IMG/VR virus record: IMGVR_UViG_3300029641_000003
DNA from: a virus
Taxonomy: Duplodnaviria > Heunggongvirae > Uroviricota > Caudoviricetes
Strand: one strand, 5' to 3'
DNA length: 64,000 nucleotides
Below the pieces are notes generated by a model that was not told the origin of the DNA, did not search any database, and saw only the letters and a program-made list of their open reading frames with translations. Shown here in pieces: positions 30,555 through 63,605 of this stretch. A program made the translations under genes and the position numbers. Within the stretch, counting starts at the first letter, position 1; each line of letters begins with the position of its first letter.

Positions 30555-30588
30555 GCTGCAAAGTGCTGGTGCTTTATGCCTGTGAAGT

Positions 30589-30617
30589 TTATAATTGTGT
30601 ACACATAACGAGTACAC
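30589..30617. promoter_or_regulatory. phd-doc promoter with palindromic Phd operator sites
   Basis: TATAAT at 30589-30594 followed by TGTGTACACA and GAGTACAC palindromes immediately upstream of phd. Confidence 0.55.
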
Positions 30618-30626
30618 GAGGTGTTT

Positions 30627-41087: not shown

Positions 41088-41471
41088 CTACCAGCGGGAT
41101 AAACGAACAACATGCTTAACTTTTGCCTCCCACTTCCCTTTATGTTTGTTGATCACCGCCTGGGCCATCTTCAGACTGGCTTCAAAATCGGCTTTTCGAC
41201 CACTATTACCCACCAGCAACGCTCCGTCTATTTCAGGTAAGCATAAGTAATCCTGCTCGACGGTAAGCGGCATTGATGATGTAACCTGGCAGGCTTTCCA
41301 TCTGAAGCGTATGCGCACACTCCTGACTGACATCACGACATAACCTGATATTGTGCTCTTGTGTCCGGCGTCTGTGCGTGTAGCCTTGCATGATGTTATC
41401 TTGCAGGTGATAATGTCCCAACCAATGTGCATCGCATCCTCAATGCGTAATTTAGTAGCCTCGTACATCAA
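41088..41471 (-). CDS. hypothetical protein (127 aa)
   Basis: ATG ORF overlapping next gene by 4 nt. Confidence 0.4.
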   Translation of the reverse strand: MMYEATKLRIEDAMHIGWDIITCKITSCKATRTDAGHKSTISGYVVMSVRSVRIRFRWKACQVTSSMPLTVEQDYLCLPEIDGALLVGNSGRKADFEASLKMAQAVINKHKGKWEAKVKHVVRLSRW

Positions 41472-42043
41472 AAAACCTCCCAGTCAGTAGCGATAATATC
41501 AACACCAGTTGCAAACCAGTCTGTCTGTGCCTGTAAATCCCCATTCATCATTACCAGGCGAGGCATAACCATCACATCACAACCTTCAACAATATCGAAT
41601 GCCTCTTCCGGCAGGAATTCGACGAGCTTTTCTTTGCTGCCAACACTGCCACGGAGCATCGATATATAGCTCCCTTTAGGCCATGATGTTCGCCGGGCAT
41701 CAAGCCCCTTCATCATCCAGTAAAAGGCCGATGAGAACGGGATGTTCTTTTTGGCGATGAGCACGTTATTCGCTTCTGTGTACTTCAGGAACTTAATTAA
41801 CCTTACCATTGACTCGGATAACGCAATGTACGGCTCATGATTGATTGCTGACACGCTTACGCCGTGCAGTCCAACACTTACCACAGTCATATCACCGTTC
41901 TGTGCGGTTTCGATGTTGACGCCTTTACGAACTAACGCTGCATAAAGCTCCTCGCGCTTTTGCGTCCAGCATTCTCGTCGCCCTATAAAGTCACTCAAAA
42001 CGAGATCATCTTCTGAATACGCGTTATCGTTCGCCGTTAACAT
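41468..42043 (-). CDS. hypothetical protein (191 aa)
   Basis: ATG ORF; no recognised motif. Confidence 0.4.
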   Translation of the reverse strand: MLTANDNAYSEDDLVLSDFIGRRECWTQKREELYAALVRKGVNIETAQNGDMTVVSVGLHGVSVSAINHEPYIALSESMVRLIKFLKYTEANNVLIAKKNIPFSSAFYWMMKGLDARRTSWPKGSYISMLRGSVGSKEKLVEFLPEEAFDIVEGCDVMVMPRLVMMNGDLQAQTDWFATGVDIIATDWEVF

Positions 42044-42497: not shown

Positions 42498-42573
42498 TGG
42501 TGGCCCCTACCGGACTTGAACCGGTGACCGTGCGATTATGAGTCGCCCGCTCTAACCACTGAGCTAAAGGGCC
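42498..42573 (-). tRNA. tRNA-Ile (anticodon CAU, ileX-like)
   Basis: 76 nt GGCCCTTTAGCTCAGTGGTTAGAGCGGGCGACTCATAATCGC...GGTTCAAGTCCGGTAGGGGCCACCA; cloverleaf with CAU anticodon and encoded CCA; near-identical to E. coli ileX as recalled. Confidence 0.8.
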
Positions 42574-43529: not shown

Positions 43530-43605
43530 TGGTGCCGGTTAACGGACTCGAACCGCTGACATCCTGCTTACAAGGCAGGCGCTCTACCAACTGAGCTAAA
43601 CCGGC
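43530..43605 (-). tRNA. tRNA-Thr (anticodon UGU)
   Basis: GCCGGTTTAGCTCAGTTGGTAGAGC...CTTGTAA...GGTTCGAGTCCGTTAACCGGCACCA canonical cloverleaf. Confidence 0.85.
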
Positions 43606-43607: not shown

Positions 43608-43682
43608 TGGCGATGGTGGATGGATTCGAACCACCGACCAGTTGGTTAACAGCCAACTGCTCTACCACTGAGCTACACCATC
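43608..43682 (-). tRNA. tRNA-Asn (anticodon GUU)
   Basis: GATGGTGTAGCTCAGTGGTAGAGC...CTGTTAA...GGTTCGAATCCATCCACCATCGCCA; 2 nt from tRNA-Thr. Confidence 0.85.
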
Positions 43683-45027: not shown

Positions 45028-46236
45028 TTATTTCCCGTAAAGATTTTCAACTCCACCGTTCTTCTTATCCCACTCGTTCGCCCATACCCGGCAAGCATCA
45101 ATTATTTCCTGACGGCGATCGCCCTGCATGAACGGAATGCTTTCATGAAAGCTGCTTGGAATGCAGGCCACACTGAACACTGTATCAAACTCAGTCTGCT
45201 TGATTGCCTCCAACGTCTCTGGACGCATTTTCAATTCGTCGATCGGTGCATCCTTAGAGTCCATAATCCGGCGATGCAAGCGTGGAAAATCCGTTTCAAG
45301 GTACGCCATAATTTTATCTGCCAGGCATTCGTCTATGTCGGTATTCCAGTCAGTTTCGAAGCCAGGAATTCGGTAGTAAAGCGGCGTTCCCCATACTGAC
45401 GGGATCACATCCATCGTCAGCAGGCGGCTGGTTCTGATTTGCTGATGGTAATTTGCCGTCAGCAACGCTTCGCCACGTTGCCCAGTCTCCGCGACCAGAC
45501 CATGCGGAAACTCATGGATATAGGCAATAGCTTCTCTTCCGTCATACATTAGCGGGAATGTCTCTGGCCTTTGCCCCATGCCACAGGCGCGATTCAGATC
45601 ATGACCAAGCTCTGAGCACTCTCGTTTCAATGTTTCAATAATGCTCTGCGCCGCTGCTAACTTTTTACGCAGTGTGACGAGTTCGCCTTGATACTCAACG
45701 CATTGCTGATTTAGCTTGGTTAAACGCTCTTTTAGTTCCCGACGCTCTCTTTTCAGCGTGCGGTTATCTTTCTCCGCAACATCCAGTCGTTTTGTCAGGC
45801 TTGGCGGATAGTCTTTTTTGTAACGACTCAAATCGACTTCAGCAGATTTGCGCAGTGTATTTGCCTGCTCAAGACGCGCCTCCAGATTGCCGATCTCATT
45901 ACGCATATTCGCGGCAAATTGATTAACTGCATCCCCCAGGCTTTCAACTGTCGCTGATACACCAGTGACTTGAGAAAAACGGATCAAGCCATCATTAACG
46001 GCTTGCTGATATTCCTCAAACTGATCCACCAGCTTATTGTAATCAACTGCCCCATCATCAAGGAGCTGGTTGATTTCCGCCACCAGGTTATCTGTAGTGG
46101 CAATGACGCTCTCATGCAGTCGCTTTGACAGGTCATCGCCCGGATTTCGTTTCTGTATAAGCGCGATTTGTGTCCGCAGCGTTTCAATTGCGGTTGAGAT
46201 GATCTCCAGGCTTGATGATTCTACTTGCTGACTCAT
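45028..46236 (-). CDS. hypothetical protein, N-terminal coiled coil plus C-terminal globular domain (402 aa)
   Basis: Single gene bracketed by operator sites and an intrinsic terminator upstream. Confidence 0.5.
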   Translation of the reverse strand: MSQQVESSSLEIISTAIETLRTQIALIQKRNPGDDLSKRLHESVIATTDNLVAEINQLLDDGAVDYNKLVDQFEEYQQAVNDGLIRFSQVTGVSATVESLGDAVNQFAANMRNEIGNLEARLEQANTLRKSAEVDLSRYKKDYPPSLTKRLDVAEKDNRTLKRERRELKERLTKLNQQCVEYQGELVTLRKKLAAAQSIIETLKRECSELGHDLNRACGMGQRPETFPLMYDGREAIAYIHEFPHGLVAETGQRGEALLTANYHQQIRTSRLLTMDVIPSVWGTPLYYRIPGFETDWNTDIDECLADKIMAYLETDFPRLHRRIMDSKDAPIDELKMRPETLEAIKQTEFDTVFSVACIPSSFHESIPFMQGDRRQEIIDACRVWANEWDKKNGGVENLYGK

Positions 46237-46260
46237 GTTTGTTCCCTTTCTTGAAATTAG

Positions 46261-46270
46261 TTTTCTAACA
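46261..46270. promoter_or_regulatory. operator half-site TTTTCTAACA
   Basis: 25 bp upstream of start of 45028-46236. Confidence 0.4.
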
Positions 46271-46311
46271 TATTTTATTAGTATGCAATTTCAATAAAAA
46301 GACTCAGGCAA

Positions 46312-46335
46312 CAAAAAACCCGCCAACTGGCGGGT
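46312..46335 (-). terminator. intrinsic terminator ending the darB operon
   Basis: CCCGCC-AACT-GGCGGG hairpin followed on minus strand by a run of 6 T. Confidence 0.55.
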
Positions 46336-46345
46336 TTATGACCGT

Positions 46346-46672
46346 TTAGACGTGTTGGAGTAGCATGTATGCCATATAAATCAAAGCTATCAGTACGACA
46401 ACTACCTCTGAAATTCTAAACGCGCGCTTTACTATCTGCCGCTCACCGTGGGGTATACCATCCGAGTATTCCTGATCCGTCATTTTCCCCAGCCAGCTTA
46501 CCGATAACAGAGCTGCATTCTCACTCATATCAAGTTCACTTACGGCCTCTCGTATAAGTGGAGCGGTTACTTTCCTGGAAGCAACTTTCATGGTTATGCT
46601 TCTGGTTCTTCCGGCGTCATCAGCAAACGTCAGATTTACGTGGTGTTTTCTGCTCAATGAACAAACTCCCAA
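46346..46672 (-). CDS. hypothetical protein with C-terminal membrane anchor
   Basis: 108 aa ending VVVVLIALIYMAYMLL. Confidence 0.4.
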   Translation of the reverse strand: MGVCSLSRKHHVNLTFADDAGRTRSITMKVASRKVTAPLIREAVSELDMSENAALLSVSWLGKMTDQEYSDGIPHGERQIVKRAFRISEVVVVLIALIYMAYMLLQHV

Positions 46673-46854
46673 TCATTGGCTTTCGCGCTTTCCGGGGTAA
46701 TGCATACCTTGTCGCCGGTAACTATGTTTCGGGCTTCTAATGCCCCATCATCCATCTTTTTAAGCTCTATACAGAAAGAATGAGGCCATGAGCAGCGACG
46801 AGCAACAACGTTAGCACCGGCAGGGATAAGTTCAGCCACGTTAAGTAAACGCAA
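46654..46854 (-). CDS. small hypothetical protein (66 aa)
   Basis: ATG ORF overlapping neighbour by 19 nt. Confidence 0.3.
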   Translation of the reverse strand: MRLLNVAELIPAGANVVARRCSWPHSFCIELKKMDDGALEARNIVTGDKVCITPESAKANDWEFVH

Positions 46855-46868
46855 AACGATTTCTCCGT

Positions 46869-47315
46869 TTAATCAAGATTTACATATTCCGTGATAGCTT
46901 TTATGGCTTCATCGGCACTGCGCGCCTCAAAGCAGTAATAGCCTGCTTCCGTGAGGCGAGTCATCCAGACGAGCTGTTCGGGAGTCAGACGGTTTCTCCC
47001 GTGCTTCATCTCAATGCGCATTCCGTGATACCCACCACGAGCAAGGTCAATAGAAAGGTCCGGATAGCCCTTCTTCTGACCTTCTGCCACCATCTTAATG
47101 GCTGTCCTTTTGCCTCTCAGGCCGCCGTTCGGTGTTGAGTGTGTGTGCTCATACACGTATCGCATGTTGCGATACAGCCAATCCAGAACGCGAACCTGTT
47201 CGTAATGTTCGTAATTCCGTTTTAATAAGTCAGGTTTTCTTTCTAACTCTCTCAGTGCAGCAGCGTGCGGGGATATTTCAGAATACGCACTATGATGCCT
47301 GCGTCTTCGCATCAA
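46869..47315 (-). CDS. VRR-NUC domain nuclease (start uncertain)
   Basis: GYPDLSIDL...RIEMKHG fits PD-(D/E)xK core of VRR-NUC. Confidence 0.55.
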   Translation of the reverse strand: MMRRRRHHSAYSEISPHAAALRELERKPDLLKRNYEHYEQVRVLDWLYRNMRYVYEHTHSTPNGGLRGKRTAIKMVAEGQKKGYPDLSIDLARGGYHGMRIEMKHGRNRLTPEQLVWMTRLTEAGYYCFEARSADEAIKAITEYVNLD

Positions 47316-47316
47316 A

Positions 47317-47327
47317 TTTCTAACACA
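47317..47327. promoter_or_regulatory. operator half-site TTTCTAACACA
   Basis: Motif-family member abutting the VRR-NUC ORF start. Confidence 0.4.
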
Positions 47328-47501
47328 AACCTCCTTAATTCATAATCACGATAATAACAAGAGCGTTAGTTTTATCAAAACCGGGGGGAATACTACTAAA
47401 GAGATAGGTGGATGCAACAGGTCGGATTTGTTTTTAGAGCAAATGGTGATAAGGGTCAACAAGCCGGGTAAATTGTATGTCATTTACCCAACTTGTTATT
47501 T

Positions 47502-47762
47502 TTAATGGTTTATTTTATCCGGTTCGTTAATTTCCGTAACCGCCTTGTCGATAGCGATCATCCATCCTTCATAGGATAAATCATCAACAAGCCCCACCAG
47601 CTTATCGTCAGTGTGCGGAAAATAAATCCATCCCCATTTCGAAGGGTTTTCTATATGCCGCAGGGTAAATACCCGCTTATAACGGTGGTATTCAAGGGCG
47701 TATCCCTTCCCTTGTGAGTACGCTTTTAAGTCGTCGATCGTAAACCTACGATTCTTTCGCAT
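47502..47762 (-). CDS. hypothetical protein (86 aa)
   Basis: ATG ORF in darB operon. Confidence 0.4.
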   Translation of the reverse strand: MRKNRRFTIDDLKAYSQGKGYALEYHRYKRVFTLRHIENPSKWGWIYFPHTDDKLVGLVDDLSYEGWMIAIDKAVTEINEPDKINH

Positions 47763-47764
47763 GG

Positions 47765-48199
47765 CTACCCCACGATTCGATATTTCTCTATAGACTCGTC
47801 GTAACTTGTGTATACGTATGGCTCTGTATCATCAGCATAAGGCGCGACTTCCAGAGCATGAACGGGATTGTATACCGCGTCATTTTCCAGGCGATCGCTC
47901 GAATACAGATGCCCGGCTAAAACCGTAAGCGCCGGGCGACTCATTTTGTAGATCTCTGCCACATCACTATCTACAACTTGTCCAAATGATATGTCGCCGC
48001 GCTCCAGCAATAACGTTTTAAGCGCAGGCCACCACGGCCCATAAAGGTGATAAAGCTGTGGATCTCTTTTCAGCCTTTCCACCATGCCATCCAGATATGC
48101 ATCCAGAAACGCCTCTTCACTCCTGCCATTGAGCGCCTGCGGCAAAATGTCCTCAAGGTAGGATTCCGTCGGTTTTACAGTGTCAATTAATGTCGTCAT
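47765..48199 (-). CDS. hypothetical protein (144 aa)
   Basis: ATG ORF immediately downstream of darB. Confidence 0.4.
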   Translation of the reverse strand: MTTLIDTVKPTESYLEDILPQALNGRSEEAFLDAYLDGMVERLKRDPQLYHLYGPWWPALKTLLLERGDISFGQVVDSDVAEIYKMSRPALTVLAGHLYSSDRLENDAVYNPVHALEVAPYADDTEPYVYTSYDESIEKYRIVG

Positions 48200-48235
48200 T
48201 CAAATTCGGCCCCGGATGGGGCCGCTCCTTATCTG

Positions 48236-51200
48236 TTAGGCCGCATCGGCGATTATTTTACGCAGTTCATCTACCGAGTAACGCGTAGATACCATCCATG
48301 CCGGACGGTCAAAGTTCACATCAGCAACCGGGTTTGCTTCAAAATTCCAGAAACGCCCGCCAATCTTCTTAATCGCGTCTTTGGCGTTTCGTATTGTCGA
48401 GGAACCAGGTTGGTCGGCAATGAGATAAACCGCGCCAACGTCCTCGCTGACGCTCCACCAGCGCCCGCGAACACGCGCCTTAGCGCGAATCGGCTTATCA
48501 TTAACCACAATGATATAGTCATCATTCGCCGCTTCATCAGCTCTGGCTTCAGCCACTGCCGCCTGCTCTTCTCTTTTGCTTTCAGCCTGTTCAAGCCTTT
48601 CCGCGATCTCTGATTCGGTGGCCCCGCCGTTTTTCAGCGATACATAGTCTTGCCACGTAGCTGATTTGAGCGCATCCGGCAACTCATTCACATAGTCACC
48701 GTCTTTCAACTCACGGGCGCGGCGGGTAGCCATTTCTACCAGGCGATTAACAGAAACAGCATCAGCAAAATCGTCCTTACTAATTTTTTCATCAAATGCA
48801 TTGATGACAGCCCCCACCTTAATCCACTGTGCTGCCGGTGATTCCAGGGGGTTATCAGCCTGGACTATGGCGAGTTTCGCTCCATCTACCCCATTATTCG
48901 CCAGCTGTTCCAGTGCCGCCCATCCATCTGCATCACTGAGTGATTTATATTGCTCAAACAATGCATCGCGCCAGGCCACCAGCGCAGAACGTGTTTTTTC
49001 GATCTTCGTCTTAATTTTCGCGATCTTGACCTGATTAAACATCCGTTCAATATCATCGATATTGCTAAAGGCTTTCATCCTGCCCTGGAATAAACGGTAT
49101 GCCAGCACGGTCCTCCAGAATGATTCCAGACCTTCTCCGGACGGTTTGCGGAACAAGCTAAGAATATCTTCAGAAGTGACTTTATTAAGCGAACGACCTG
49201 ACAGACCACGCCCAGCCATCCAGTTTTCGAACTCCTGGGCAACATCATCCATCGTTGCCTGTGCGCCCCATGCCTGCATTCCCTGGATGTAATCATACCC
49301 ATACAATGCCTGGAGGAATCCCTCACCGTCCACGATATTCAGCGGGTTATCACTGGCTTGTATTTTTGCCACTTCACGCTTCAGCGCCTCATCGTTGCCA
49401 TCTGGATATATCCATCGTTCAGGTGCTATATCCGATGCTCGCCCGATTTTTTGGCCTATCACGCCATCATAGGCCGATGACAGCGCGATCTGACCATCAT
49501 CTGTGCGATATGCCCAGTATTTAATAGCTGACCCACCGCCCCATGCATTACCAGGTTTACCAGCAATAACATTCATTACCCCATTGCGAATAGCATCATA
49601 GAACTGATCGCGAGTAAGTATTGTTGATAGCTGGTGGCACTGAACACCACGCGCAGCCGTTGCGCGCGATTCAGCTACCCCCTCTTCAAAAGTTACCGCT
49701 TCAATCACAGAGTCAAACGGCAATGTAACGATTGACCCCGGTGATCGAGCGTAACGACTTGCTCTATCCAGCCAGGCGATACGGCAGAGGTATTGTGCTT
49801 TTTCACCGTCAATTTTTTCCACCCGGACAATCGCTGTTGTTTCGCGATCATCAATGACTGCACGGTAATAACTACCTTTATGCAACAGGATATTCTTGTC
49901 AGTGCGCATATATTCCTGTGGGTTCTGAATAACATCGATACTGATATCCAGCACACCAGACTTAATAGCGCGCTCCACATCACCACGAGAGCGTTTCATT
50001 ATGGTATCCGCGTCTTTTGCCCTGGTGATCGCAAACCGCAGCACCCGCGCACGTTTTCTGTAGCTACTCAACTGCTCAAGCGCGAATTTTTGCCCATTCC
50101 TGTTCGTACCCGCTTTTATCAGGTCGTCAAGATTTCGCTGGTAATACTCTATCTGTTCCATCGCGCTTTTCAGTTCTGTCTCCATCATGCCGATATCTTT
50201 TCCAGCGGCGTTTGCCGCTTTCAGGTAGATATCGAGAGCATTGTTGGCCTCGCGCTGTGCTTTCAGTTTCAGACGTTCTTCACGCTCTTGCGCCTGGCGA
50301 GCCATGATTGCGCGGCGTTCTTCCGGGTTTGCCGCCAGCATAATGGCGCGTTCATCAGCATCATCCGCATCACCATTGGCGATCTCTGACATGTCGGAGG
50401 TCATCACCATCTTGATCCAGTCTTTCTTACGTTTCAGCGTATCCAGACGGAAGTCGTCGAATGTGCCTTTGCCACAATAGTAGTGAACATTGACCTTCTC
50501 TTGCGGTGAACCTACGCGCGCACCGCGCCCATTTCGTTGGTCGATACTGGCTGGTGTCCAGGGTAGTGTCAGGTGGTGGATATCGGTTGTCCCGATATGC
50601 AGGTTAATACCTACTTCAGCCTTCTTGTTACAGATAATGATGCGCGTGCGCCCTTCGTTATAGTCGGCGGCAATGCCTTCCATACCCTCAAGGCCAGCAT
50701 CATTTTTAGCTGAGAGATAATCCTCATATTGGGCAAGTTTGCTGTAGTAGGTTTCCCATGCCCCTTCTTTGTATTCACCGTTTTTATTCGGAGTAGGTTC
50801 AGTCGGCTTATTCACCTTCTTCAGCTTGATGCCGCCAGCCTGGCTAACGGTCGTCGCATTGATAATGCCTATCTCCTGCTCCGGCATTTGCAGTGCACTG
50901 GCGATAATACGGCGCAGCTTCTGGTGCTGGGCTTTTTCATCAATGAAGACAATTTGTTTACCGTTCTTCAGACCTTCACGAAGGTTTTCGATCAGCGCGG
51001 CATACTTCGGCGGGATGGGGTGTGATACCTGCTGCAGATCAATCCCGGCGGCAGCAATGGCCTTCAGTATTTCAGCTTCCAGTTCAATGCTGGCGCGTAT
51101 TTCAACATGCACCGGATGTTCACTAAAGGTGGTCTTCACTACCTTGCTGGTACGTGTATTGACCAGTCCACCAGCGCCGTCTTCTTCGACCTCGTCTGCA

Positions 51201-54200
51201 TCATCTGCCACTTTACCGCCAGCTACTTTTGGCAGGGCATCAGCAATAGCTTTTACCTTGTCTGCAAGCTCAACGGGGAACTGGAATGTAATCGCACTGG
51301 CATACAGATCCGGATCTATAGCAACCTTATCCATGTCGCGGATGATGGAGAAGATGAAATCATCCGGTTTTTCGTTTGTGATATGCCCGTTTTCATCAAC
51401 CGTCAGCGCATCTTTACTACTTAACTCCTGTGCACGCTTACGAAGTTCTTCATAAGCAGCCTCCTGCTCCCCTGTCATCGGGATCTGCAAGGTATTCTCG
51501 ACAATATCAGGGATTTTAACCGTCGCCCCGACGTCCGCAGCAGTCTTCAGAGTAGTCCAGCGATGGAAAATACCACGCAGGCCATCAAGGTTCTGGAAGC
51601 CAACCAGCCCCTGCTTCTCTTCCACTTCCCCGGAAATTTTCTGGACCTGAACTGTGGCTGTTTTACCAAACACACGAACGAAATCATCAGGCGTAATGAT
51701 GCCCATGCGCATCCACTCTTCCTGCGGAATGACAGTAGACAGCATGTTGAAGGCATCAATCGGACTGTTCACCAGCGGTGTTGCCGTCAGCATGACTACA
51801 CCACGCCCGTTGTTGCGTTTCATCATGTACGCAGCTTTTACAGCCATGTCGCGGGCCATCTTGGATACTGCCGGGTTAGGCAAATATGCCAGTTGTCCCG
51901 CTTCACGCCCGGCATTAAAGGAGTTGCGGTAGTTATGCCCCTCGTCGGCAATCACGCTATCGAAGTTCATATCCTCAAAGTACGGGATATTCTGCTTCTT
52001 CGTTGTACCGGTATTCGCGGCCTGATCCTTAATCTTGTTCTTCTTCTGCGCATCACGGTGTTTACCAGACGCCAGGTCAAGACGCCCCATTTCCACAGCA
52101 TTAAAGACAGCTTGCTGTGAGTTCTCCTCGATGGTTTTTTCTCGTAGCGGGATAGACGCGAATTGTTCTTTTGTCATGATGACCGTTCGCCAATTTGACG
52201 ACGGGATCATGTTCATGCGCTGAACGATAACGGCGCTGGCGGACTCTTTCACAACATTTCTGGTAAGAGGCTGCCCGTTACTGTCGAGGCGGGGTTCGCC
52301 ATTTTCATCAAGCACCGGCGCGGTCAGAATATTGCCGTCTTCATCACGAACCTCATCCAGACCGATAAACATCATATTGGCGAAGGCATCAGCACTGTAG
52401 AAGCTCTGTGCCTCGTGATACCAGTTCTGATAAACCGCCTTCGGAACAACAATACACGTGCGTTTAGTGCGACCTGTTTCGAAGTTATACGCCTCAAGCG
52501 CAAGCGCAGTCGTGGTTTTACCCAGCCCGGTACCAAATCCCATGATGCCGCGCCCATCTTCTGACAAGCGACGAACTTCTTCATTCTGATAAGTCAGAGG
52601 AATGCGCTTTCCACTAATCCCTTCCAGGCCAAGCGGTGCGTTAGAGTGCGTAAACGGAATGAAGCCATTGAATGCGTCGTTATAGTCACGGGCTATCTGA
52701 TCCGCCTGCGGGTGGGTGCGTAACCAGTCGTTAAAACTAACTTCCAGTTGAGCAATTTTATCCAGGTACTCGTTAGCGTTCTGCCCACGCGGTTTAACAC
52801 CGTTCAGGTAGTTTTCTAACTGGTTCAGGAAGCCGTCTTTATTGTTGGCCTTCTTGAACTCATTCCCGTTTTTGCCGTTTACGGTTCGTAGTTGATAGCC
52901 GGTAAATACCCCGTCCTTACCTTCGTAATCGTCCGGAGATACCAGAATGCCATCGACGACCTTCAGATCAGGTTCAGTGTACTTAAACTCGTCATAGCCC
53001 TGCTCTGCCAGGAACTCTTTTATCAAGCGGCGATCCAGCCAGCGGGCGTTCAGATTAACGGTGACTTTATTTAGTGGCGTGAAAATGCGTTTCTCTTCGA
53101 TTTTCGCCAACTGACGCTCAAAGTTCGCTTTCTGCTCACCTGTTGACGCATCACGCCAACCCACCAGCAATGTTGTTTTGGTTGCAATATCGCCGCTGGT
53201 GGCGCGGTCCATCGGCAGCAGGCAGCCATACCCATCAATAGCGATATCATCAAATTTCGCCAGGTATTCAAGGGCCGCGTCGTCGTCCTCTGGCAGTTCA
53301 CCAGCAAACGCCTCACGAAAGTCGCCCAGCGTTATAGGATTAAGGGCTACATCACTGAAAAGATGTGCTATCACTTGTTCAGGACGTGTAAAGTCAATAC
53401 CGGCAGCACCATCCGTTACATCAAGTCGCCCTGCCAGAAGGTCAGAAGTGGAACCATCCTGTTTCACATTGCCAGTGAACGTCATCCAGTTTTTAGCGCC
53501 AGCTTCTGCAAGCCCATTCAGCTTAATCGCGTGCGGTGGTCCATACTTCGCAACTTCTGCTGCCGCCAGGCGGGATGCATCTGCCAGTTTGTCATCAACG
53601 TTCACCCCCAGGTTACGCAAATCAAGTGCCTTGTTGATCAACTGCCCTATCAACGCACCGCGCATAACGCGCTCCCTGTCTTTTTCTCGCTGTTTGCCAG
53701 CAAAGCGAATCATTGCTGCCACTTCATCACTGACAACCGATGGATAGTCGGACGCGATCGCCGATATCTGGTCCCATGACAAAGCCAGAATCCCGTTTGT
53801 TGACTGGAACGCGATCTGCAGATCGCCAAACGTCGAAACACCATATCGACTTACATCAAGCGCGGAGGATTTGGTTGTCGTGTCCTTAACCCATTTCAGA
53901 CCATCAAACTCATGCCAGATACCGCCTACAAGGCGTTTATCGCCCACTTTCGCGCCCTGCCATGCCTGAGTAGTTACGCCGAGCAAATCCCAATTGATGC
54001 GACTATCAAAGCGACGAGATAGCGCGGTTTTCATCGACTCATTGGATACACGACCGTCTTTTTTCACCACCAGGGTATTGCGGAAGCTGGTGCGTTCCAT
54101 GTCGCCGTAAACAAATCGCTTCCCTTCGGTTGTAAACCATTTCCCTTTGAGGAAGGTATCCCAAAGGACGTTTGCCGATTTGAGCGTTGCATCATCCGTG

Positions 54201-55084
54201 TCGGGGATCATCTCCAGGAAGGTTTCCGGGTGTTTACGCAATACCCATACGTCCACCACCGTATCTGTACCGGATTCGCTGAACGTACCAGAAGGCATAC
54301 GATGCGCGCCCAAAAATTCCGCTTTACGGCTGACTTTATCGCGCAATTTTTTGTATTTCGTACCATCGGTCATGCCATTCGGCACCACCAATACAATTAG
54401 TCCACCAGGCTTAACCTTGTCGATTGTGCGCAGCACAAAGTAATTGCCAACGTTCTTCTCGTTTGCATATGCCGGATCAAGCCCGGCGACACCGGAACGC
54501 CCTTCACCAAACGGTACGTTACCAACAGCGTGATCATACATTGCGTCTTTCGCCGCCAGCGCCTCAAACGCCCCGATATTCACATCGTCTTCCGGGTGCA
54601 AAAGCTGGTTTATTCGACCGGAAATCGGAGACAGTTCGGCGCTGGTCATTATCATGCCCTGCCGTTTTGTCTCCTGGAAAATACCTGTGCCCGCTGATGG
54701 TTCCAGTACGTGCCCGCCATCAATACCGTAGTCAGCAAACAGATCCCATATACCTTCAGCCATAAACTGTGGCGTGTAGTATTCGTATTGGCTGCCCTCA
54801 CCATCTGTCAGGCCGCCTTCACCGGTATACCCGGCAAGAATCTGACGTTGTTCGTCAGTTAATTTCGCCCCATCGAAGCCGGGCGGAAGGGAATTAAGAA
54901 GATTTACTGCGGCGTTGTTTGCTGCCCGGCGTGTTTTCTGAATACTGACGCCATCGACTTTCTTAACGCCAAAGGTCACTACAGCTCGCGGTTTATGCAA
55001 CCGACTAACAATTTCAATCAGCGCCCCAATGCTGGTGGCCTGGCTAATTGAATCAATTATTTTGTCCAAAGGAAGCCCCCTCAA
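48236..55084 (-). CDS. darB: DarB-like antirestriction protein (N6-adenine methyltransferase plus SF2 helicase, 2282 aa)
   Basis: Single 6.8-kb frame; SAM motif VLEPSAGTG in N-terminal region; helicase Walker A GFGTGLGKTT and DEGH box (SVIADEGHNYRNS); size matches P1 DarB. Confidence 0.85.
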   Translation of the reverse strand: MRGLPLDKIIDSISQATSIGALIEIVSRLHKPRAVVTFGVKKVDGVSIQKTRRAANNAAVNLLNSLPPGFDGAKLTDEQRQILAGYTGEGGLTDGEGSQYEYYTPQFMAEGIWDLFADYGIDGGHVLEPSAGTGIFQETKRQGMIMTSAELSPISGRINQLLHPEDDVNIGAFEALAAKDAMYDHAVGNVPFGEGRSGVAGLDPAYANEKNVGNYFVLRTIDKVKPGGLIVLVVPNGMTDGTKYKKLRDKVSRKAEFLGAHRMPSGTFSESGTDTVVDVWVLRKHPETFLEMIPDTDDATLKSANVLWDTFLKGKWFTTEGKRFVYGDMERTSFRNTLVVKKDGRVSNESMKTALSRRFDSRINWDLLGVTTQAWQGAKVGDKRLVGGIWHEFDGLKWVKDTTTKSSALDVSRYGVSTFGDLQIAFQSTNGILALSWDQISAIASDYPSVVSDEVAAMIRFAGKQREKDRERVMRGALIGQLINKALDLRNLGVNVDDKLADASRLAAAEVAKYGPPHAIKLNGLAEAGAKNWMTFTGNVKQDGSTSDLLAGRLDVTDGAAGIDFTRPEQVIAHLFSDVALNPITLGDFREAFAGELPEDDDAALEYLAKFDDIAIDGYGCLLPMDRATSGDIATKTTLLVGWRDASTGEQKANFERQLAKIEEKRIFTPLNKVTVNLNARWLDRRLIKEFLAEQGYDEFKYTEPDLKVVDGILVSPDDYEGKDGVFTGYQLRTVNGKNGNEFKKANNKDGFLNQLENYLNGVKPRGQNANEYLDKIAQLEVSFNDWLRTHPQADQIARDYNDAFNGFIPFTHSNAPLGLEGISGKRIPLTYQNEEVRRLSEDGRGIMGFGTGLGKTTTALALEAYNFETGRTKRTCIVVPKAVYQNWYHEAQSFYSADAFANMMFIGLDEVRDEDGNILTAPVLDENGEPRLDSNGQPLTRNVVKESASAVIVQRMNMIPSSNWRTVIMTKEQFASIPLREKTIEENSQQAVFNAVEMGRLDLASGKHRDAQKKNKIKDQAANTGTTKKQNIPYFEDMNFDSVIADEGHNYRNSFNAGREAGQLAYLPNPAVSKMARDMAVKAAYMMKRNNGRGVVMLTATPLVNSPIDAFNMLSTVIPQEEWMRMGIITPDDFVRVFGKTATVQVQKISGEVEEKQGLVGFQNLDGLRGIFHRWTTLKTAADVGATVKIPDIVENTLQIPMTGEQEAAYEELRKRAQELSSKDALTVDENGHITNEKPDDFIFSIIRDMDKVAIDPDLYASAITFQFPVELADKVKAIADALPKVAGGKVADDADEVEEDGAGGLVNTRTSKVVKTTFSEHPVHVEIRASIELEAEILKAIAAAGIDLQQVSHPIPPKYAALIENLREGLKNGKQIVFIDEKAQHQKLRRIIASALQMPEQEIGIINATTVSQAGGIKLKKVNKPTEPTPNKNGEYKEGAWETYYSKLAQYEDYLSAKNDAGLEGMEGIAADYNEGRTRIIICNKKAEVGINLHIGTTDIHHLTLPWTPASIDQRNGRGARVGSPQEKVNVHYYCGKGTFDDFRLDTLKRKKDWIKMVMTSDMSEIANGDADDADERAIMLAANPEERRAIMARQAQEREERLKLKAQREANNALDIYLKAANAAGKDIGMMETELKSAMEQIEYYQRNLDDLIKAGTNRNGQKFALEQLSSYRKRARVLRFAITRAKDADTIMKRSRGDVERAIKSGVLDISIDVIQNPQEYMRTDKNILLHKGSYYRAVIDDRETTAIVRVEKIDGEKAQYLCRIAWLDRASRYARSPGSIVTLPFDSVIEAVTFEEGVAESRATAARGVQCHQLSTILTRDQFYDAIRNGVMNVIAGKPGNAWGGGSAIKYWAYRTDDGQIALSSAYDGVIGQKIGRASDIAPERWIYPDGNDEALKREVAKIQASDNPLNIVDGEGFLQALYGYDYIQGMQAWGAQATMDDVAQEFENWMAGRGLSGRSLNKVTSEDILSLFRKPSGEGLESFWRTVLAYRLFQGRMKAFSNIDDIERMFNQVKIAKIKTKIEKTRSALVAWRDALFEQYKSLSDADGWAALEQLANNGVDGAKLAIVQADNPLESPAAQWIKVGAVINAFDEKISKDDFADAVSVNRLVEMATRRARELKDGDYVNELPDALKSATWQDYVSLKNGGATESEIAERLEQAESKREEQAAVAEARADEAANDDYIIVVNDKPIRAKARVRGRWWSVSEDVGAVYLIADQPGSSTIRNAKDAIKKIGGRFWNFEANPVADVNFDRPAWMVSTRYSVDELRKIIADAA

Positions 55085-55221
55085 AACCGTTAAATCCGCC
55101 TTAAGCGGTTCGGTTTGAGAGGGTATGGAGAATGTTATTTTCAGGGATGAACGACACTACCGTCAAAATCACATACTCACCATAGTTTGCCTACTTATTA
55201 ACCCATGAGCGGGAGAAATAT

Positions 55222-55707
55222 ATGGCAAACATTGAACCTCGCTGGCTTATTGAGGCCCGTAAAAATATTGGAGTCACCGAAATAAAAGGAGCGAAACACA
55301 ATCCAGAGATCGTTCAGTTCTGGCGGGATATTAAGCGCAGCGGAATTAAAGACGACGAAACGCCGTGGTGCGCTGCATTTGTTGGTGCAATGCTGGAACG
55401 TGTAGGTATCCGCTCAACAAGATTTGAGTCGGCAAAATCCTATCTGGATTGGGGCGAGAAATTAGATACACCGGCATACGGATGTATCGTTGTATTTACC
55501 CGCGTAGGCGGTGGGCACGTAGGCTTCGTTGTCGGACACCGCGCCAATGGCGATCTGCTTGTCTTGGGTGGGAACCAGGGGGATGCTGTTAATATTCGCG
55601 CATTCCCAACATCAAGAGTGTCTGGCTATCGCTGGCCTGCTGGCGAACCACGCAATACAGCTCTGTTACCAGTCGGAGACGCAGCAACCTCAACTAATGA
55701 GGCATAA
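55222..55707 (+). CDS. CHAP/NlpC-P60-like cysteine peptidase domain protein
   Basis: Candidate catalytic Cys in ETPWCAAFVG and His in GGGHVGFVVGH. Confidence 0.5.
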   Translation: MANIEPRWLIEARKNIGVTEIKGAKHNPEIVQFWRDIKRSGIKDDETPWCAAFVGAMLERVGIRSTRFESAKSYLDWGEKLDTPAYGCIVVFTRVGGGHVGFVVGHRANGDLLVLGGNQGDAVNIRAFPTSRVSGYRWPAGEPRNTALLPVGDAATSTNEA

Positions 55708-56867: not shown

Positions 56868-57196
56868 AGTTACGGCCTCGTAAGTTGATAAACAACCTGC
56901 GACCCGCTGTCAAACAGGTGGCAGGACGTGACAGGGTTGACAGACTGGCACTTACGAAACCAGCAGGCCGAAGCCTCCCCATCACGCCCCACCATAATTC
57001 GGGCGTAACGTGGTTTTACGGACACAAAAATACCGCAATATCGGAAATGTGCGGTTGTCCGCGTAAGTATTCAGGCTGTCAAACCTGGTCGCAGAATTTG
57101 CTACGACGGCATGAATATAAGCCTGAACATTAGAAAGATCAACAGAATTTTTATCAAATGCTGTTTTTTAGTGACAATGTAAATCATACATTCTTG
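56868..57196 (-). other. structured untranslated leader, copy 2 (candidate c4-like RNA region)
   Basis: No ORF; hairpin CCGCA...TGCGG followed by U-run ending TTTTTGTGTC, the same tail as in copy 1. Confidence 0.3.
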
Positions 57197-61139: not shown

Positions 61140-61371
61140 GATTCACCGCAAAAGGTTTCCGATTTCGTGGCAGCTTATCCAGTGTGTGATTTCATCAGTA
61201 ATTTTTCGTTGTTTTCACTATTTGCTGATGTTTTTTCATATGCGGAAATGCTTTTCCAAAAACGCAACCACTAAACAAAGAAGTTATGTTTATAAACATT
61301 TTTGTTGTGTTTTATATCTTTTGTGTTATTATCCTTGTCGCCCATGATGGATAAATTGCATAAGGAAACTT

Positions 61372-62128: not shown

Positions 62129-63514
62129 TCAGGTTTCCAGCCCAAAATCGCTTTGTTCTGTTTTGGCTTCGAACATCGTGAAGTTAAGCCCTTTCCCCTC
62201 TCCATGTTCCAGTTCAATCTCATTAGAAACAGCGGTCAAAATACTACGTAGATCAACATCTCCACCGCCGAACATATCGCCCAACGCCTGCTGTTTATGA
62301 ATCAGTTCGTCGTTGATTTTTTGTGCCATTTTTTTGAATGCAGCCCCCATGCGCTTCGCGCTTCGATTATTTGCCACGATGAATAGCGCCAACGCCTCAG
62401 CTTCCGGCGTGCTATCACCGAAGAGTCCGCGCTGGGCTATCACCTCTTCCACTGCCTGACCGTTGTCTTTGGCTTCACGAACAAGGTTAATCGCGTCCTG
62501 GAGTGCTGCTATAGCCTGTTTATCCAGACCGTTCACCTGCTCTATACCATCAACCAGACCAGTTACAGCATCATGATGTGCATCGCCAGAAATCGACTGC
62601 ATTTGCGCAAAGTCACTGGCTGCTGTATTAAGCGCGGTCAGGATATTGCGCATTTCCGGATCCGGTTCTTCCGCCACAAGCCGAACAAGTCGCTCATCCT
62701 TATAGGCTTTGGCAAAAATCGCATTCTGAATGCGATCGATAAGCTGTTTCGTTGGACGTCCATCGGCTGTAAGCAAACCTGCCGTCGCGGTATCGCCTAT
62801 TTCGTGCAAAAACGCACGAATAAACGCATCATTGGACCGCGCCAGTAGATTTCCATCATCTGAAGGATTAAATAGCGCCATGACGCTCTCAGTGAGAAAT
62901 TGCGCATCCGCATACGCTTTCTCACTTGCAGCCATCTCTTGCAGATCGCTGATGTTTGAGTCGCGTGCAAATTGAGCACGATCAACGTCAGTGAGGCGCT
63001 CGCGAACCAGTACAGGCATCACCATTGCCCTGACGTCTTCGGGATTAAGGCCAAACTCTTTAGCGTGATCGATAAGATATTGTCGGTAATCTTCAGCCTG
63101 CCCTTGTTCATAAGCACGCCAGATTCCCATGCTTCGACCATTACCAGACTCAACGACATTATCCGGACCAACAATCGGGGAACCATGACTACTCATACCC
63201 GAATCAGTGAGTTGTGCCGGGCGTAAATTGGCGGCGATACGGTTAACCTGGAGCTTGCTTGACAGTCGGGTGCGATCGCGAGGCTGGAGTTCCTCCGGAA
63301 ATGACGGATTTATACTTCCGTCCAGGTTGTTAGAAATGATGAGCTTTTTGGCATCAATAACCTTGAACGCTGTTTTAACTTCGTCGCCTTTGCTGGTGAC
63401 GACATAGCTGCTACGCCCCAACTTCGTCTCTTGCTTTTCAAGAGATGACACCACAGCGATAACCCCCTCAATGTTCGCTGCGGCCAAAAGTGCTGATGTT
63501 ACGTTTTGAGTCAC
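62129..63514 (-). CDS. hypothetical protein (461 aa), possibly virion-associated
   Basis: Long ATG ORF convergent with hicAB; acidic, helix-rich. Confidence 0.45.
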   Translation of the reverse strand: MTQNVTSALLAAANIEGVIAVVSSLEKQETKLGRSSYVVTSKGDEVKTAFKVIDAKKLIISNNLDGSINPSFPEELQPRDRTRLSSKLQVNRIAANLRPAQLTDSGMSSHGSPIVGPDNVVESGNGRSMGIWRAYEQGQAEDYRQYLIDHAKEFGLNPEDVRAMVMPVLVRERLTDVDRAQFARDSNISDLQEMAASEKAYADAQFLTESVMALFNPSDDGNLLARSNDAFIRAFLHEIGDTATAGLLTADGRPTKQLIDRIQNAIFAKAYKDERLVRLVAEEPDPEMRNILTALNTAASDFAQMQSISGDAHHDAVTGLVDGIEQVNGLDKQAIAALQDAINLVREAKDNGQAVEEVIAQRGLFGDSTPEAEALALFIVANNRSAKRMGAAFKKMAQKINDELIHKQQALGDMFGGGDVDLRSILTAVSNEIELEHGEGKGLNFTMFEAKTEQSDFGLET

Positions 63515-63605
63515 AATTAACCACCTTTCTGTAAAAAAGGCAGTGTAAAAAGTGTGTTATTTCGGTGACTATTTTAAGAAGAAAGGGGCATTCTGCCCCT
63601 TTCTT

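What the first reader, a model, noticed from the sequence alone, without database searches (positions are those of the whole stretch)
46312..55084. DarB-like giant gene heads an operon with a VRR-NUC nuclease and four small proteins
The 2282-aa methyltransferase-helicase is followed on the same strand by 144-aa, 86-aa, VRR-NUC (148-aa), 66-aa and membrane-anchored 108-aa ORFs, ending at a strong terminator. I recall darB in P1 being linked to ulx and lxc rather than a nuclease. The nuclease and partners may be additional injected antirestriction or DNA-processing factors.
Basis: partly seen in the sequence, partly recalled or inferred. Interest (0 to 1): 0.4.

Follow-up and report, generated by a model that had tools for sequence, protein, structure and literature searches.

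The report
Known darB–ulx plus pmg gene cluster
This stretch holds the already-annotated anti-restriction genes darB and ulx of a D6-like, P1-family phage-plasmid, followed by homologues of P1's pmgM (a DNA-junction nuclease) and pmgR (head completion) and two small lineage-specific genes; the layout is ordinary and conserved, and published P1 knockouts argue against the nuclease being an anti-restriction factor.

Summary
The ORFs and the terminator are real. All lie on the minus strand. The window is a D6-like P1-family phage-plasmid (99.1% identical to an E. coli plasmid, 94.3% to phage D6).

- **Gene identities:** the 2282-aa ORF is DarB (43% identical to P1 DarB). The 144-aa ORF is Ulx itself (46%), DarB's known packaging partner. 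The VRR-NUC ORF is the homologue of P1 PmgM (55%). The 108-aa ORF is PmgR-like, and pmgS follows the terminator. The 86-aa and 66-aa ORFs are conserved, lineage-restricted genes of unknown function.
- **Layout:** two P1 modules, darB–ulx and pmgM…pmgR–pmgS, sit side by side. D6's GenBank record already annotates this, and Cronobacter phage JK004 shows the same juxtaposition.
- **Transcription:** darB has its own conserved Lpa-type late promoter. A 17-bp hairpin and a conserved σ70-like promoter lie in the 186-nt gap before pmgM. "One operon" is therefore plausible only as late read-through.
published P1 ΔpmgM, ΔpmgL, ΔpmgN and ΔpmgS mutants plate normally and keep normal anti-restriction. PmgM is absent from the virion proteome. 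ΔpmgR blocks head completion. The "injected anti-restriction nuclease" idea is not supported.
- **Weak lead:** the 66-aa protein may have a DUF2829/Tad2-like fold.

Interest is low.

The parts
55120..55140 (-). Lpa-type (D6-variant) late promoter of darB: AAATAACA-N7-TACCCT
   Evidence: The motif AAATMACA-N7-nAnnnT has 8 matches in the window against 0.52 expected. The other matches sit in front of the MCP, upfC/B, tail gene 7, mat, portal, ddrB-like and CHAP genes. The same architecture (AAATTACA-N7-TACCCT) lies directly upstream of darB in the diverged contig L009.
48236..55084 (-). darB: N6-adenine methyltransferase plus SNF2 helicase, a capsid-internal anti-restriction protein. Likely start is TTG 55069.
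   Evidence: 43% identity to P1 DarB over about 2000 aa. Pfam N6_Mtase, SNF2-rel_dom, ResIII and Helicase_C. phrog_1685 hit over the full length. D6 orf15 is annotated 'similar to P1 gene darB'. Motifs EPSAGTG, NVPF, GTGLGKT and DEGH are visible in the alignment.
48200..48230 (-). darB-ulx junction: SD AAGGAG (48230-48225), a 7-bp GC hairpin (48224-48207), then 7 nt before the ulx ATG
   Evidence: dG -17.7 kcal/mol, z -3.1. The same SD-hairpin-ATG layout occurs in P1, JK004 and L009, with three compensatory pair changes between the P1-type stem CGCCCGG/CCGGGCG and the D6-type stem CGGCCCC/GGGGCCG.
47765..48199 (-). ulx (called olxA in P7): the virion protein that helps DarB incorporation
   Evidence: 46% identity to P1 Ulx, E 1e-44. 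phrog_1629 'Ulx-like anti-restriction', E 4.8e-59. P1 Ulx was detected in the virion (PMC9024508).
47502..47762 (-). orf86: a lineage-restricted conserved protein of unknown function. It starts 2 nt after the ulx stop, in the position that lxc holds in P1.
47457..47498 (-). 17-bp RNA hairpin directly after orf86, with no U tract. It overlaps a near-match to the late-promoter motif (AAATAACA-N7-TAAATG at 47501-47481).
   Evidence: dG -22.4 kcal/mol, z -7.3, 0 of 200 shuffles as stable. The two G·U pairs are possible only on the sense strand. It is conserved in D6 and L010, and L009 has a different hairpin. Motif near-match.
47351..47378 (-). sigma70-like promoter TTGATA-16-TATTAT with TG, upstream of pmgM-like
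   Evidence: Best-scoring promoter-like site in the region, 10 of 12. The -35-like and -10-like hexamers keep the same position in four lineages. This is a consensus match only and has not been shown to be active.
46869..47315 (-). pmgM-like stand-alone VRR-NUC (PD-(D/E)XK) nuclease, a probable dimeric Holliday-junction or branch resolvase
   Evidence: 55% identity to P1 PmgM. Pfam VRR_NUC is above its cutoff. PDB 4qbl (psNUC) matches at E 1.1e-16. D86, E102 and K104 are invariant. psNUC is a dimeric HJ-cleaving enzyme (PMC4103454).
46654..46854 (-). orf66: a lineage-restricted small protein with an SH3-like beta barrel, possibly a minimal DUF2829/Tad2-like fold
46346..46672 (-). pmgR-like protein (likely start TTG 46657, 103 aa) with an added C-terminal hydrophobic tail
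   Evidence: Hits the P1 PmgR family phrog_3177 at 6.8e-10, and P1 PmgR hits the D6-type phrog_9115 at 0.0018. Pairwise identity is 28%. The tail is present in three D6-like lineages and absent from P1 PmgR.
46316..46337 (-). intrinsic terminator ending the pmgM-orf66-pmgR unit
   Evidence: AAACCCGCC-AGTT-GGCGGGTTT followed by TTTGTT. dG -18.6 kcal/mol, z -3.5.
45028..46236 (-). pmgS-like coiled-coil protein in a separate unit after the terminator. This is context: in P1, pmgS directly follows pmgR.
   Evidence: phrog_1660 'PmgS-like head morphogenesis', E 3.8e-143. tblastn with P1 PmgS gives E 2.7e-11. A sigma70-like site lies at 46294-46267.

Best explanation
The region is the junction of two conserved P1-family gene modules in a D6-like phage-plasmid.

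Module 1 is darB-ulx-orf86, driven by a late (Lpa-type) promoter.
- DarB is a methyltransferase-SNF2 helicase. By homology with P1 it is loaded into the capsid, injected with the DNA, and protects that DNA in cis from type I restriction.
- Ulx is its packaging helper. Its translation is probably set by a conserved hairpin that bridges the Shine-Dalgarno sequence and the start codon.
- orf86 is a translationally coupled gene of unknown role.

Module 2 is pmgM-orf66-pmgR, ending at the strong terminator.
- PmgM-like is a cytoplasmic, dimeric VRR-NUC junction resolvase. It most likely trims branched replication or recombination intermediates before headful packaging. It is dispensable in P1.
- orf66 is an accessory small protein.

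Module 2 has its own promoter region and probably also receives late read-through from the darB promoter. The layout is ancestral-type synteny and not a new anti-restriction operon.

Shown here: the homologies, the motifs, conservation, purifying selection, the promoter motif statistics and the RNA structures. Inferred: all biochemical activities, the packaging status and the transcript boundaries.
For: - Identity of the element: megablast 99.1% to plasmid NZ_CP104667 and 94.3% to phage D6, whose record names orf9-15 as pmgS, pmgR, pmgM, ulx and darB homologues.
- Homologies: DarB 43%, Ulx 46%, PmgM 55%, PmgR by reciprocal profiles, PmgS.
- P1 map: darB-ulx-lxc-mod-res lies apart from pmgL...pmgS.
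- JK004 has darB-ulx-lxc-like-...-pmgL-pmgM...pmgR-pmgS contiguous on one strand.
- Synteny is kept in three further D6-like lineages, and window-vs-D6 dN/dS is 0.05-0.19 for ulx, orf86, pmgM and orf66.
- Late promoter motif: 8 matches against 0.52 expected, including one in front of darB. It is conserved in L009.
- Hairpin, promoter-like site and terminator.
- VRR-NUC catalytic D/ExK residues are invariant, and the closest solved relative, psNUC, is a dimeric HJ resolvase.
- P1 genetics and proteomics: Ulx and DarB are in the virion and PmgM is not listed. Delta-pmgM, L, N and S have no plaque or anti-restriction phenotype. Delta-pmgR gives unjoined heads and tails (PMC9024508). CRISPRi scores pmgM as non-essential (PMC10695390).
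Against: - No experiment exists for this element or for D6 itself, so every function is transferred from P1 at 28-55% identity.
- The P1 anti-restriction assays covered only three type I systems. A role for PmgM against other defences is not excluded.
- The PmgM 'debranching before packaging' role is an analogy (T4 gp49, T7 gp3; my own knowledge). The lack of any P1 phenotype leaves it untested.
- PmgR-like carries a hydrophobic C-terminal tail that P1 PmgR lacks, so its mode of action may differ.
- Transcript boundaries are predictions. The hairpin after orf86 lacks a U tract. The internal promoter is only a consensus match. The late-motif near-match there lacks the final T.
Confidence: 0.8

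Rival explanations
1. All six genes form one dedicated Dar operon, and the VRR-NUC nuclease and the small proteins are extra capsid-packaged, injected anti-restriction or DNA-processing factors.
For: - The genes are co-directional and tightly packed, with only one canonical terminator, at the end.
- darB has a late promoter, and no canonical late promoter lies between it and pmgR. Late read-through is therefore plausible.
- orf86 is translationally coupled to ulx.
- The P1 assays tested only EcoA, EcoB and EcoK.
Against: - P1 delta-pmgM has parental EOP on EcoA, EcoB and EcoK hosts and plates normally. PmgM is not in the P1 virion proteome.
- PmgR is a morphogenesis gene.
- In P1, pmgM and pmgR lie about 26 kb from darB on the other strand. 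The linkage is therefore not functionally required.
- The orf86-pmgR segment recombines independently of darB-ulx: 53-89% against 96-100% identity to D6.
- A hairpin and a conserved promoter-like site split the cluster.
Confidence: 0.07
2. The variable orf86-to-pmgR segment is partly an anti-defence or accessory islet. orf66 would be a minimal DUF2829/Tad2-like ligand sponge or Acr-like inhibitor, and orf86 another counter-defence or regulatory protein (for example a positional analogue of the C1 co-repressor Lxc). These would be expressed in the cell and not injected.
For: - Its best BFVD hit is a 66-aa DUF2829 protein (prob 0.99, E 0.011, 26% identity), and two more Tad2-like hits follow.
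- It shares G-x-x-V-x-RR-x-SW and A-x-DWE motifs with the window's own 191-aa Tad2-like protein at 41468-42043.
- The single hhalign comparison gives P = 0.002.
- The segment exists as sharply distinct alleles: about 9 plasmids carry the window type and about 110 carry the D6 type at about 77% identity.
- P1 carries its res/mod cargo at the equivalent place after ulx-lxc.
Against: - No sequence-profile method confirms DUF2829. Pfam PF11195 reaches only E 0.48 on one family member. Pfam, NCBIfam and PADLOC give nothing for orf66 itself. The PDB profile search returns unrelated hits. hhalign probability is 5-13%.
- orf86 has no informative match at all.
- Sharp allelic divergence is common phage mosaicism and need not mean an arms race.
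Confidence: 0.2
3. The small ORFs (86, 66 and 108 aa) are chance open frames, and only darB, ulx and the nuclease are genes.
For: They are short, have no Pfam domain, and PGAP omits some of them in several plasmid records.
Against: - Lengths and positions are kept in four lineages down to 33-54% amino-acid identity.
- dN/dS is 0.15-0.23 at dS of about 1.
- Start codons overlap or abut the preceding stops.
- AF2 models are confident.
- The 108-aa ORF matches the essential P1 PmgR family.
Confidence: 0.02

Closest known systems
Phage D6 orf9-orf15 (GenBank MF356679 / NC_050154; Gilcrease & Casjens 2018)
   Same: Same genes in the same order on the same strand: darB, ulx, orf13, pmgM-like, orf11, pmgR-like, pmgS-like. 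darB and ulx are 96-100% identical at the nucleotide level.
   Different: The orf86-to-pmgR segment is a different allele: 53-89% nucleotide identity, amino-acid identity 72/89/71/52%. The PmgM N-terminus is 16 aa shorter. The window allele is the rarer one among sequenced plasmids.
Phage P1 Dar system, darB-ulx(-lxc) unit
   Same: DarB is 43% and Ulx 46% identical. The MTase and SNF2 motifs are the same. The SD-hairpin-ATG junction before ulx is the same. The other Dar genes (hdf, darA, ddrA, ddrB) are present in D6, and the ddrA/ddrB homologues lie at the window's end.
   Different: No lxc, mod or res follows ulx; orf86 is unrelated to Lxc. The promoter box is AAATMACA-N7 instead of P1's AAGTGACTT-N4. 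The DarB N-terminus, which is the capsid-targeting region in P1, is diverged.
Phage P1 pmgL-pmgS cluster (and the contiguous darB...pmgS layout of Cronobacter phage JK004)
   Same: pmgM, pmgR and pmgS homologues appear in the same relative order. JK004 also places this cluster directly downstream of darB-ulx on the same strand.
   Different: The D6-type cluster lacks pmgL, N, O, P, ppp and Q. It has orf66 between pmgM and pmgR, and a terminator plus a 110-nt spacer between pmgR and pmgS. Its PmgR-like protein has an extra hydrophobic C-terminal tail.
Stand-alone bacterial/viral VRR-NUC nucleases (psNUC 4qbl, stNUC, saNUC; Pennell et al. 2014, PMC4103454)
   Same: Single-domain protein of about 150 aa. 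The D...ExK catalytic residues are present. E is 1e-16 to psNUC. Those enzymes are dimeric Holliday-junction resolvases.
   Different: No biochemical data exist for PmgM or this protein. About 35 N-terminal residues are conserved only among P1/D6-type proteins.
DUF2829 / Tad2 (anti-Thoeris sponge) and AcrIIA7
   Same: For orf66 only: a small SH3-like barrel with N-terminal G..V.RR.SW and C-terminal A.DWE motifs. Weak structural matches.
   Different: orf66 is shorter (66 aa against 86-104 aa). No significant profile match exists. Ligand-binding residues were not assessed.

Membership tests
DarB (P1-type methyltransferase-SNF2 helicase anti-restriction protein) | Full-length homology to P1 DarB with the N-terminal adenine-MTase plus SF2/SNF2 helicase dyad | tested here: met
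   43% identity over about 2000 aa. Pfam N6_Mtase, SNF2-rel_dom, ResIII and Helicase_C. phrog_1685 and phrog_10089 'DarB-like'. Motifs EPSAGTG, NVPF, GTGLGKT and DEGH are seen.
DarB (P1-type methyltransferase-SNF2 helicase anti-restriction protein) | Packaged in the capsid through an N-terminal targeting signal and injected; protects DNA in cis from EcoB/EcoK | not testable with these tools
   Known for P1 only (PMC9024508; PMC12810830). The N-terminal 200 nt are among the least conserved parts of the gene against D6 (86%).
DarB (P1-type methyltransferase-SNF2 helicase anti-restriction protein) | Presence of the partner Dar genes (ulx, hdf, darA, ddrA, ddrB) | tested here: met
   ulx is adjacent. 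DdrA and DdrB homologues lie at 62165-63968. hdf, darA, ddrA and ddrB are annotated in D6.
Ulx / OlxA | Sequence homology to P1 Ulx and position immediately downstream of darB | tested here: met
   46% identity, E 1e-44. phrog_1629, E 4.8e-59. 36-nt spacer with a conserved SD-hairpin-ATG.
VRR-NUC (PF08774) stand-alone junction-resolving nuclease | Pfam model above the gathering threshold | tested here: met
   26.2 bits against a cutoff of 23.8, E 9e-6. PDB 4qbl matches at E 1.1e-16.
VRR-NUC (PF08774) stand-alone junction-resolving nuclease | PD-(D/E)XK catalytic residues intact | tested here: met
   PD86 and E102-x-K104 are invariant in the window, D6 and P1 proteins and align with psNUC.
VRR-NUC (PF08774) stand-alone junction-resolving nuclease | Homodimer that cleaves four-way junctions symmetrically | not testable with these tools
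   Shown for psNUC, stNUC and saNUC (PMC4103454). No assay exists for PmgM.
P1 PmgR (head completion / head-tail joining factor) | Sequence homology to P1 PmgR | tested here: met
   The window protein hits phrog_3177 (the P1 PmgR family) at 6.8e-10. The reverse hit is 0.0018. Pairwise identity is 28%, E 9e-8. tblastn against the whole window did not reach E 0.01, so the relationship is distant.
P1 PmgR (head completion / head-tail joining factor) | Essential for producing joined, infectious virions | not testable with these tools
   P1 deletion phenotype only (PMC9024508). The D6-type protein has an extra hydrophobic tail.
DUF2829 / Tad2-like (PF11195), considered for orf66 | Significant match to the family profile | tested here: not met
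   No Pfam hit for orf66 even at E 10. One family member reaches E 0.48. NCBIfam gives nothing. hhalign probability is 5-13%, P 0.002.
DUF2829 / Tad2-like (PF11195), considered for orf66 | Fold similarity to solved or predicted Tad2/AcrIIA7 structures | tested here: inconclusive
Single operon (one transcript from darB to the terminator) | One promoter, no internal terminator or promoter, one terminator | tested here: inconclusive
   A late promoter lies before darB and a terminator after pmgR-like. Between them lie a 186-nt gap with a 17-bp hairpin lacking a U tract and a conserved sigma70-like site. Transcript data are needed.
Lxc (P1 C1 co-repressor), considered for orf86 because of its position | Sequence similarity to P1 or JK004 Lxc | tested here: not met
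   BLASTP E 5.6 against both. They belong to different PHROGs, 6844 against 2160.

The most novel reading that the evidence does not exclude
The two lineage-restricted small proteins are new counter-defence or Dar-accessory factors. orf66 would be a 66-aa minimal Tad2/DUF2829-type sponge or Acr-like inhibitor embedded in a late morphogenesis unit. orf86, translationally coupled to ulx, would be a further component of the DarB packaging or anti-restriction machinery specific to D6-type phage-plasmids. The sharp allelic replacement of exactly this segment would then reflect selection by host defences.
Probability: 0.15. Interest if true: 0.5.

Novelty: already known. Interest (0 to 1): 0.15.

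Why it matters
As it stands it matters little. The gene content and order are already annotated in phage D6 and in more than 100 sequenced E. coli, Salmonella and Shigella phage-plasmids. The P1 homologues of the supposedly new partners have been knocked out without any anti-restriction phenotype.

The work does give three useful things:
- A correct reading of the locus: two P1 modules placed side by side.
- A usable late-promoter motif for D6-type elements.
- Two compact, conserved, uncharacterised proteins (orf86 and orf66) as candidates, should anyone study Dar-system accessories or small anti-defence proteins in P1-family phage-plasmids. These elements are common carriers of resistance genes in Enterobacteriaceae.

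Tried and rejected
- **P1 C1 operator:** the consensus (ATTGCTCTAATAAATTT, up to 3 mismatches) gave no match in the window. The TTGCTCTAA core upstream of pmgM is unique and at chance level. I make no claim of repressor control.
- **P1 late-promoter consensus:** AAGTGACTT-N4-TANNNT gave only scattered 2-mismatch hits and none near darB. I replaced it with the D6-type motif derived from D6 upstream regions.
- **orf86 against Lxc:** no similarity to P1 or JK004 Lxc.
- **orf66 against PmgL:** no similarity.
- **Other P1 genes in the window:** P1 Lxc, PmgL, N, O, P, Ppp, Q, Pap, PmgT, PmgV and Res gave nothing.
- **Family libraries for the small ORFs:** Pfam at E up to 10, NCBIfam and PADLOC gave nothing useful.
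- **Profile search for orf66:** the search of 1.84 billion representatives found only more 66-aa family members plus repeat-protein noise.
- **Third homologue search:** using the window's Tad2-like domain, it returned only 4 proteins, so the hhalign test was underpowered.
- **Library not available:** the afdb50 fold library was not on the machine.
- **Papers not held:** the D6 genome paper, Piya 2017 and Lobocka 2004.
- **Not examined:** long antisense ORFs inside darB on the + strand (up to 228 aa). D6's annotation has no genes there.
Full report
**What the window is.**
Megablast of 46000-55300 finds phage D6 at 94.3% identity and 121 plasmid records. The best is E. coli plasmid NZ_CP104667 at 99.1%. 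These are about 90-kb, non-mobilizable, P1-related phage-plasmids. The rest of the window carries homologues of P1 Cre, C1 (weak), PacA/B, Lpa, Mat, Ref, DdrA and DdrB, as well as a C4 antisense RNA and three tRNAs.

**Observation.**
The six ORFs exist at the stated coordinates, all on the minus strand. The terminator at 46337-46316 is a 9-bp stem followed by a U run, with dG -18.6 kcal/mol.
- Pfam confirms the MTase and SNF2 helicase domains in the 2282-aa ORF and VRR_NUC in the 148-aa ORF.
- The last ORF has a hydrophobic C-terminal segment.
- Two starts need small corrections. darB most likely starts at TTG 55069, 6 nt after GAGGGGG, as annotated in D6. The last ORF most likely starts at TTG 46657, overlapping the preceding stop codon as TTGA.
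- The small ORFs are real genes. Order and lengths are kept in D6 and in the diverged contigs L009, L010 and L011. Window-vs-D6 dN/dS is 0.05-0.19 at dS near 1 for orf86, pmgM and orf66; pmgR-like is too diverged for dS.

**What each gene is.**
- **DarB:** 43% identical to P1 DarB over about 2000 residues, with motifs EPSAGTG, NVPF, GTGLGKT and DEGH.
- **Ulx:** the 144-aa ORF is Ulx (46% identity; phrog_1629).
- **PmgM:** the VRR-NUC ORF is the homologue of P1 PmgM (55% identity).
- **PmgR:** the 108-aa ORF belongs with P1 PmgR. It hits phrog_3177 at 6.8e-10, and P1 PmgR itself defines that family and hits the D6-type family in return.
- **PmgS:** the 402-aa ORF after the terminator is PmgS-like.
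- **orf86 and orf66:** these fall in the PHROG families 6844 and 7206, both of unknown function. Each has only about five 90%-identity clusters among 5.8 billion proteins.
- D6's GenBank record already labels orf9, 10, 12, 14 and 15 as pmgS-, pmgR-, pmgM-, ulx- and darB-like.

**Comparison with P1.**
In P1, darB-ulx-lxc-mod-res occupy 3.5-17.2 kb on the minus strand. The genes pmgL-M-N-O-P-ppp-Q-R-S occupy 78.6-83.7 kb on the plus strand.
- Here the two modules abut on one strand.
- lxc, mod, res, pmgL and pmgN-Q are absent.
- This juxtaposition is not peculiar to D6-like elements. Cronobacter phage JK004, which has P1-type proteins, carries darB, ulx, an lxc-sized gene, two small genes, then pmgL-, pmgM- and pmgN-sized genes through pmgR and pmgS, contiguously on one strand.

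**Transcription.**
- I derived a D6-type late-promoter motif from the regions upstream of D6 late genes. The motif is AAATMACA-N7-nAnnnT.
- It has 8 matches in the window against 0.52 expected, and 0 of 100 shuffles reach 8.
- The matches lie in front of the major capsid gene, upfC/B, the tail gene-7 operon, mat, the portal gene, the ddrB-like gene, the CHAP gene and darB (55140-55120).
- The diverged contig L009 keeps AAATTACA-N7-TACCCT immediately upstream of darB, even though a HigB/HTH module has been inserted there.
- darB is therefore a late gene with its own Lpa-type promoter.
- Downstream, ulx follows after 36 nt and orf86 starts 2 nt after the ulx stop.
- Then comes a 186-nt gap. It holds a perfect 17-bp hairpin (dG -22.4, z -7.3) without a U tract. 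It also holds a late-motif near-match that lacks the final T and the best sigma70-like site of the region, TTGATA-16-TATTAT with TG. The hexamers of that site keep their position in four lineages.
- pmgM, orf66 and pmgR-like are then tightly packed up to the terminator.
- My inference: late read-through from the darB promoter into pmgM-pmgR is plausible. PmgR must be made late, and no canonical late box precedes it. But the second unit also has its own promoter region.

**Independent evolution of the two halves.**
- Against D6, darB and ulx are 96-100% identical, but identity falls to 53-89% between 47800 and 46280.
- Ulx is 99% identical at the amino-acid level. orf86, PmgM, orf66 and PmgR-like are 72, 89, 71 and 52%.
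- Among plasmids, about 9 carry the window's allele of this segment and about 110 carry the D6 allele at about 77% identity.
- This argues against one indivisible functional unit.

**Function.**
- **Published P1 work on the Dar proteins:** DarB and Ulx are virion head proteins. [quoted passage not shown] Ulx, DarB and DdrB protect against EcoB and EcoK.
- **DarB model:** DarB-type methylase-helicase dyads are proposed to translocate on, and modify, the entering DNA (PMC5512222).
- **Published P1 knockouts:** Gonzales et al. deleted 29 P1 genes, including pmgL, M, N, R and S. All except the essential ones made normal plaques and had parental EOP on EcoA, EcoB and EcoK hosts. Delta-pmgR gave tails and incomplete heads. 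PmgM does not appear in the main text, which includes the virion-protein table. CRISPRi also scores pmgM as non-essential.
- **The nuclease:** its closest solved relative is psNUC (E 1e-16), a dimeric Holliday-junction resolvase. The catalytic D86, E102 and K104 are invariant.
- **Most likely role:** PmgM-like is therefore most likely a cytoplasmic branch or junction resolvase that clears DNA for headful packaging. This is an analogy with T4 gp49 and T7 gp3, from my own knowledge. It is not an injected anti-restriction protein.

**The two unknowns.**
- **orf66** folds as a small SH3-like barrel (pLDDT 84).
  - The best Foldseek hit in BFVD is a 66-aa DUF2829 protein (E 0.011, prob 0.99).
  - It shares the G..V.RR.SW and A.DWE motifs with the window's own Tad2-like protein.
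  - Sequence profiles do not confirm this.
  - I treat it as a lead with roughly even odds for the fold and much lower odds for an anti-defence function.

**Verdict.**
The locus is an already annotated, widespread arrangement of known P1-family modules.

Noticed in passing
window 48200-48232 (-); P1 L004:10436-10470; JK004 L012:9193-9227; L009:9524-9564: The darB-ulx junction has a Shine-Dalgarno sequence (AGGAG), then a 7-bp GC-rich hairpin, then 7-9 nt before the ulx ATG. The layout is conserved from P1 to D6-like elements. Three compensatory base-pair changes separate the P1-type stem (CGCCCGG/CCGGGCG) from the D6-type stem (CGGCCCC/GGGGCCG), and the loops vary. It looks like a hairpin-bridged ribosome-binding site or a darB 3' stabiliser.
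   Followed up: partly
window 1099-1119(-), 4819-4839(-), 13520-13540(-), 17755-17775(-), 55120-55140(-), 55166-55186(+), 61172-61192(-), 63542-63562(-): A D6-type late-promoter motif, AAATMACA-N7-nAnnnT, has 8 matches against 0.52 expected. It precedes the capsid, tail, mat, portal, ddrB-like, darB and CHAP genes. It differs from P1's AAGTGACTT-N4-TANNNT box. L009 uses the variant AAATTACA.
   Followed up: partly
window 46280-47800: There is a sharp mosaic boundary at the 3' end of ulx. The orf86-to-pmgR segment is 53-89% identical to D6, while the flanks are 96-100%. Plasmids fall into two allele classes: about 9 carry the window type and about 110 carry the D6 type at about 77%.
   Followed up: partly
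between darB and the CHAP gene: window 55085-55221; L009:1797-2527; L010:1324-2493; L007:10184-10657: This is an insertion hotspot in related elements. L009 has a HigB/HTH toxin-antitoxin pair, L010 and L011 have an IS605-family OrfB/TnpB gene, and about 5 plasmids have a 'carboxypeptidase-like regulatory domain' gene. The window has none of these.
   Followed up: no
window 47457-47498 (-): An unusually stable 17-bp hairpin (dG -22.4, z -7.3) sits directly after the orf86 stop codon. Its two G·U pairs form only on the sense strand, and it has no U tract. It could be an RNA processing or stabilising element or a weak terminator. L009 has a different hairpin at the same place.
   Followed up: partly
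L005:3870-4094 and L007:1870-2166 (closest plasmids), equivalent to window 46869-47315: PGAP annotates the VRR-NUC gene of the window-type allele as only 74 or 98 aa, starting at internal Met codons. Such a protein would lack the first helix and strand of the nuclease fold. Strong purifying selection over codons 13-74 (amino acids conserved at dS of about 1.2) indicates the 148-aa frame is the real one.
   Followed up: partly
window 41468-42043 (-): A 191-aa protein has a C-terminal Tad2-like (DUF2829, PF11195) domain and is the homologue of D6 orf6. It is a candidate anti-Thoeris gene just downstream of lpa.
   Followed up: no
window 56914-56999 (-); 42501-42573, 43533-43605, 43611-43682 (-): Rfam finds a C4 antisense RNA (69.6 bits), the P1/P7 immI-type regulator, upstream of the icd/ant-like genes. 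It also finds three tRNA genes.
   Followed up: no
window 31561-32334 (-) and 30112-31218: A second, partial PacB-like (terminase) reading frame is 37% identical to P1 PacB residues 9-266. It is additional to the full pacB at 37749-39203. A humD/phd/doc block next to it is 93% identical to P1.
   Followed up: no
L012 (Cronobacter phage JK004) 62000-80000: JK004 carries darB, ulx, an lxc-sized gene, pmgL, pmgM and onward to pmgR and pmgS contiguously on one strand, with every gene annotated 'hypothetical'. It is a P1-type intermediate that explains the D6-type layout.
   Followed up: partly
window 49793-50389, 50769-51455, 51563-52120, 53178-53747 (+): Long open frames of 185-228 aa run antisense to darB. 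D6 has none annotated there, and they are probably composition artefacts.
   Followed up: no
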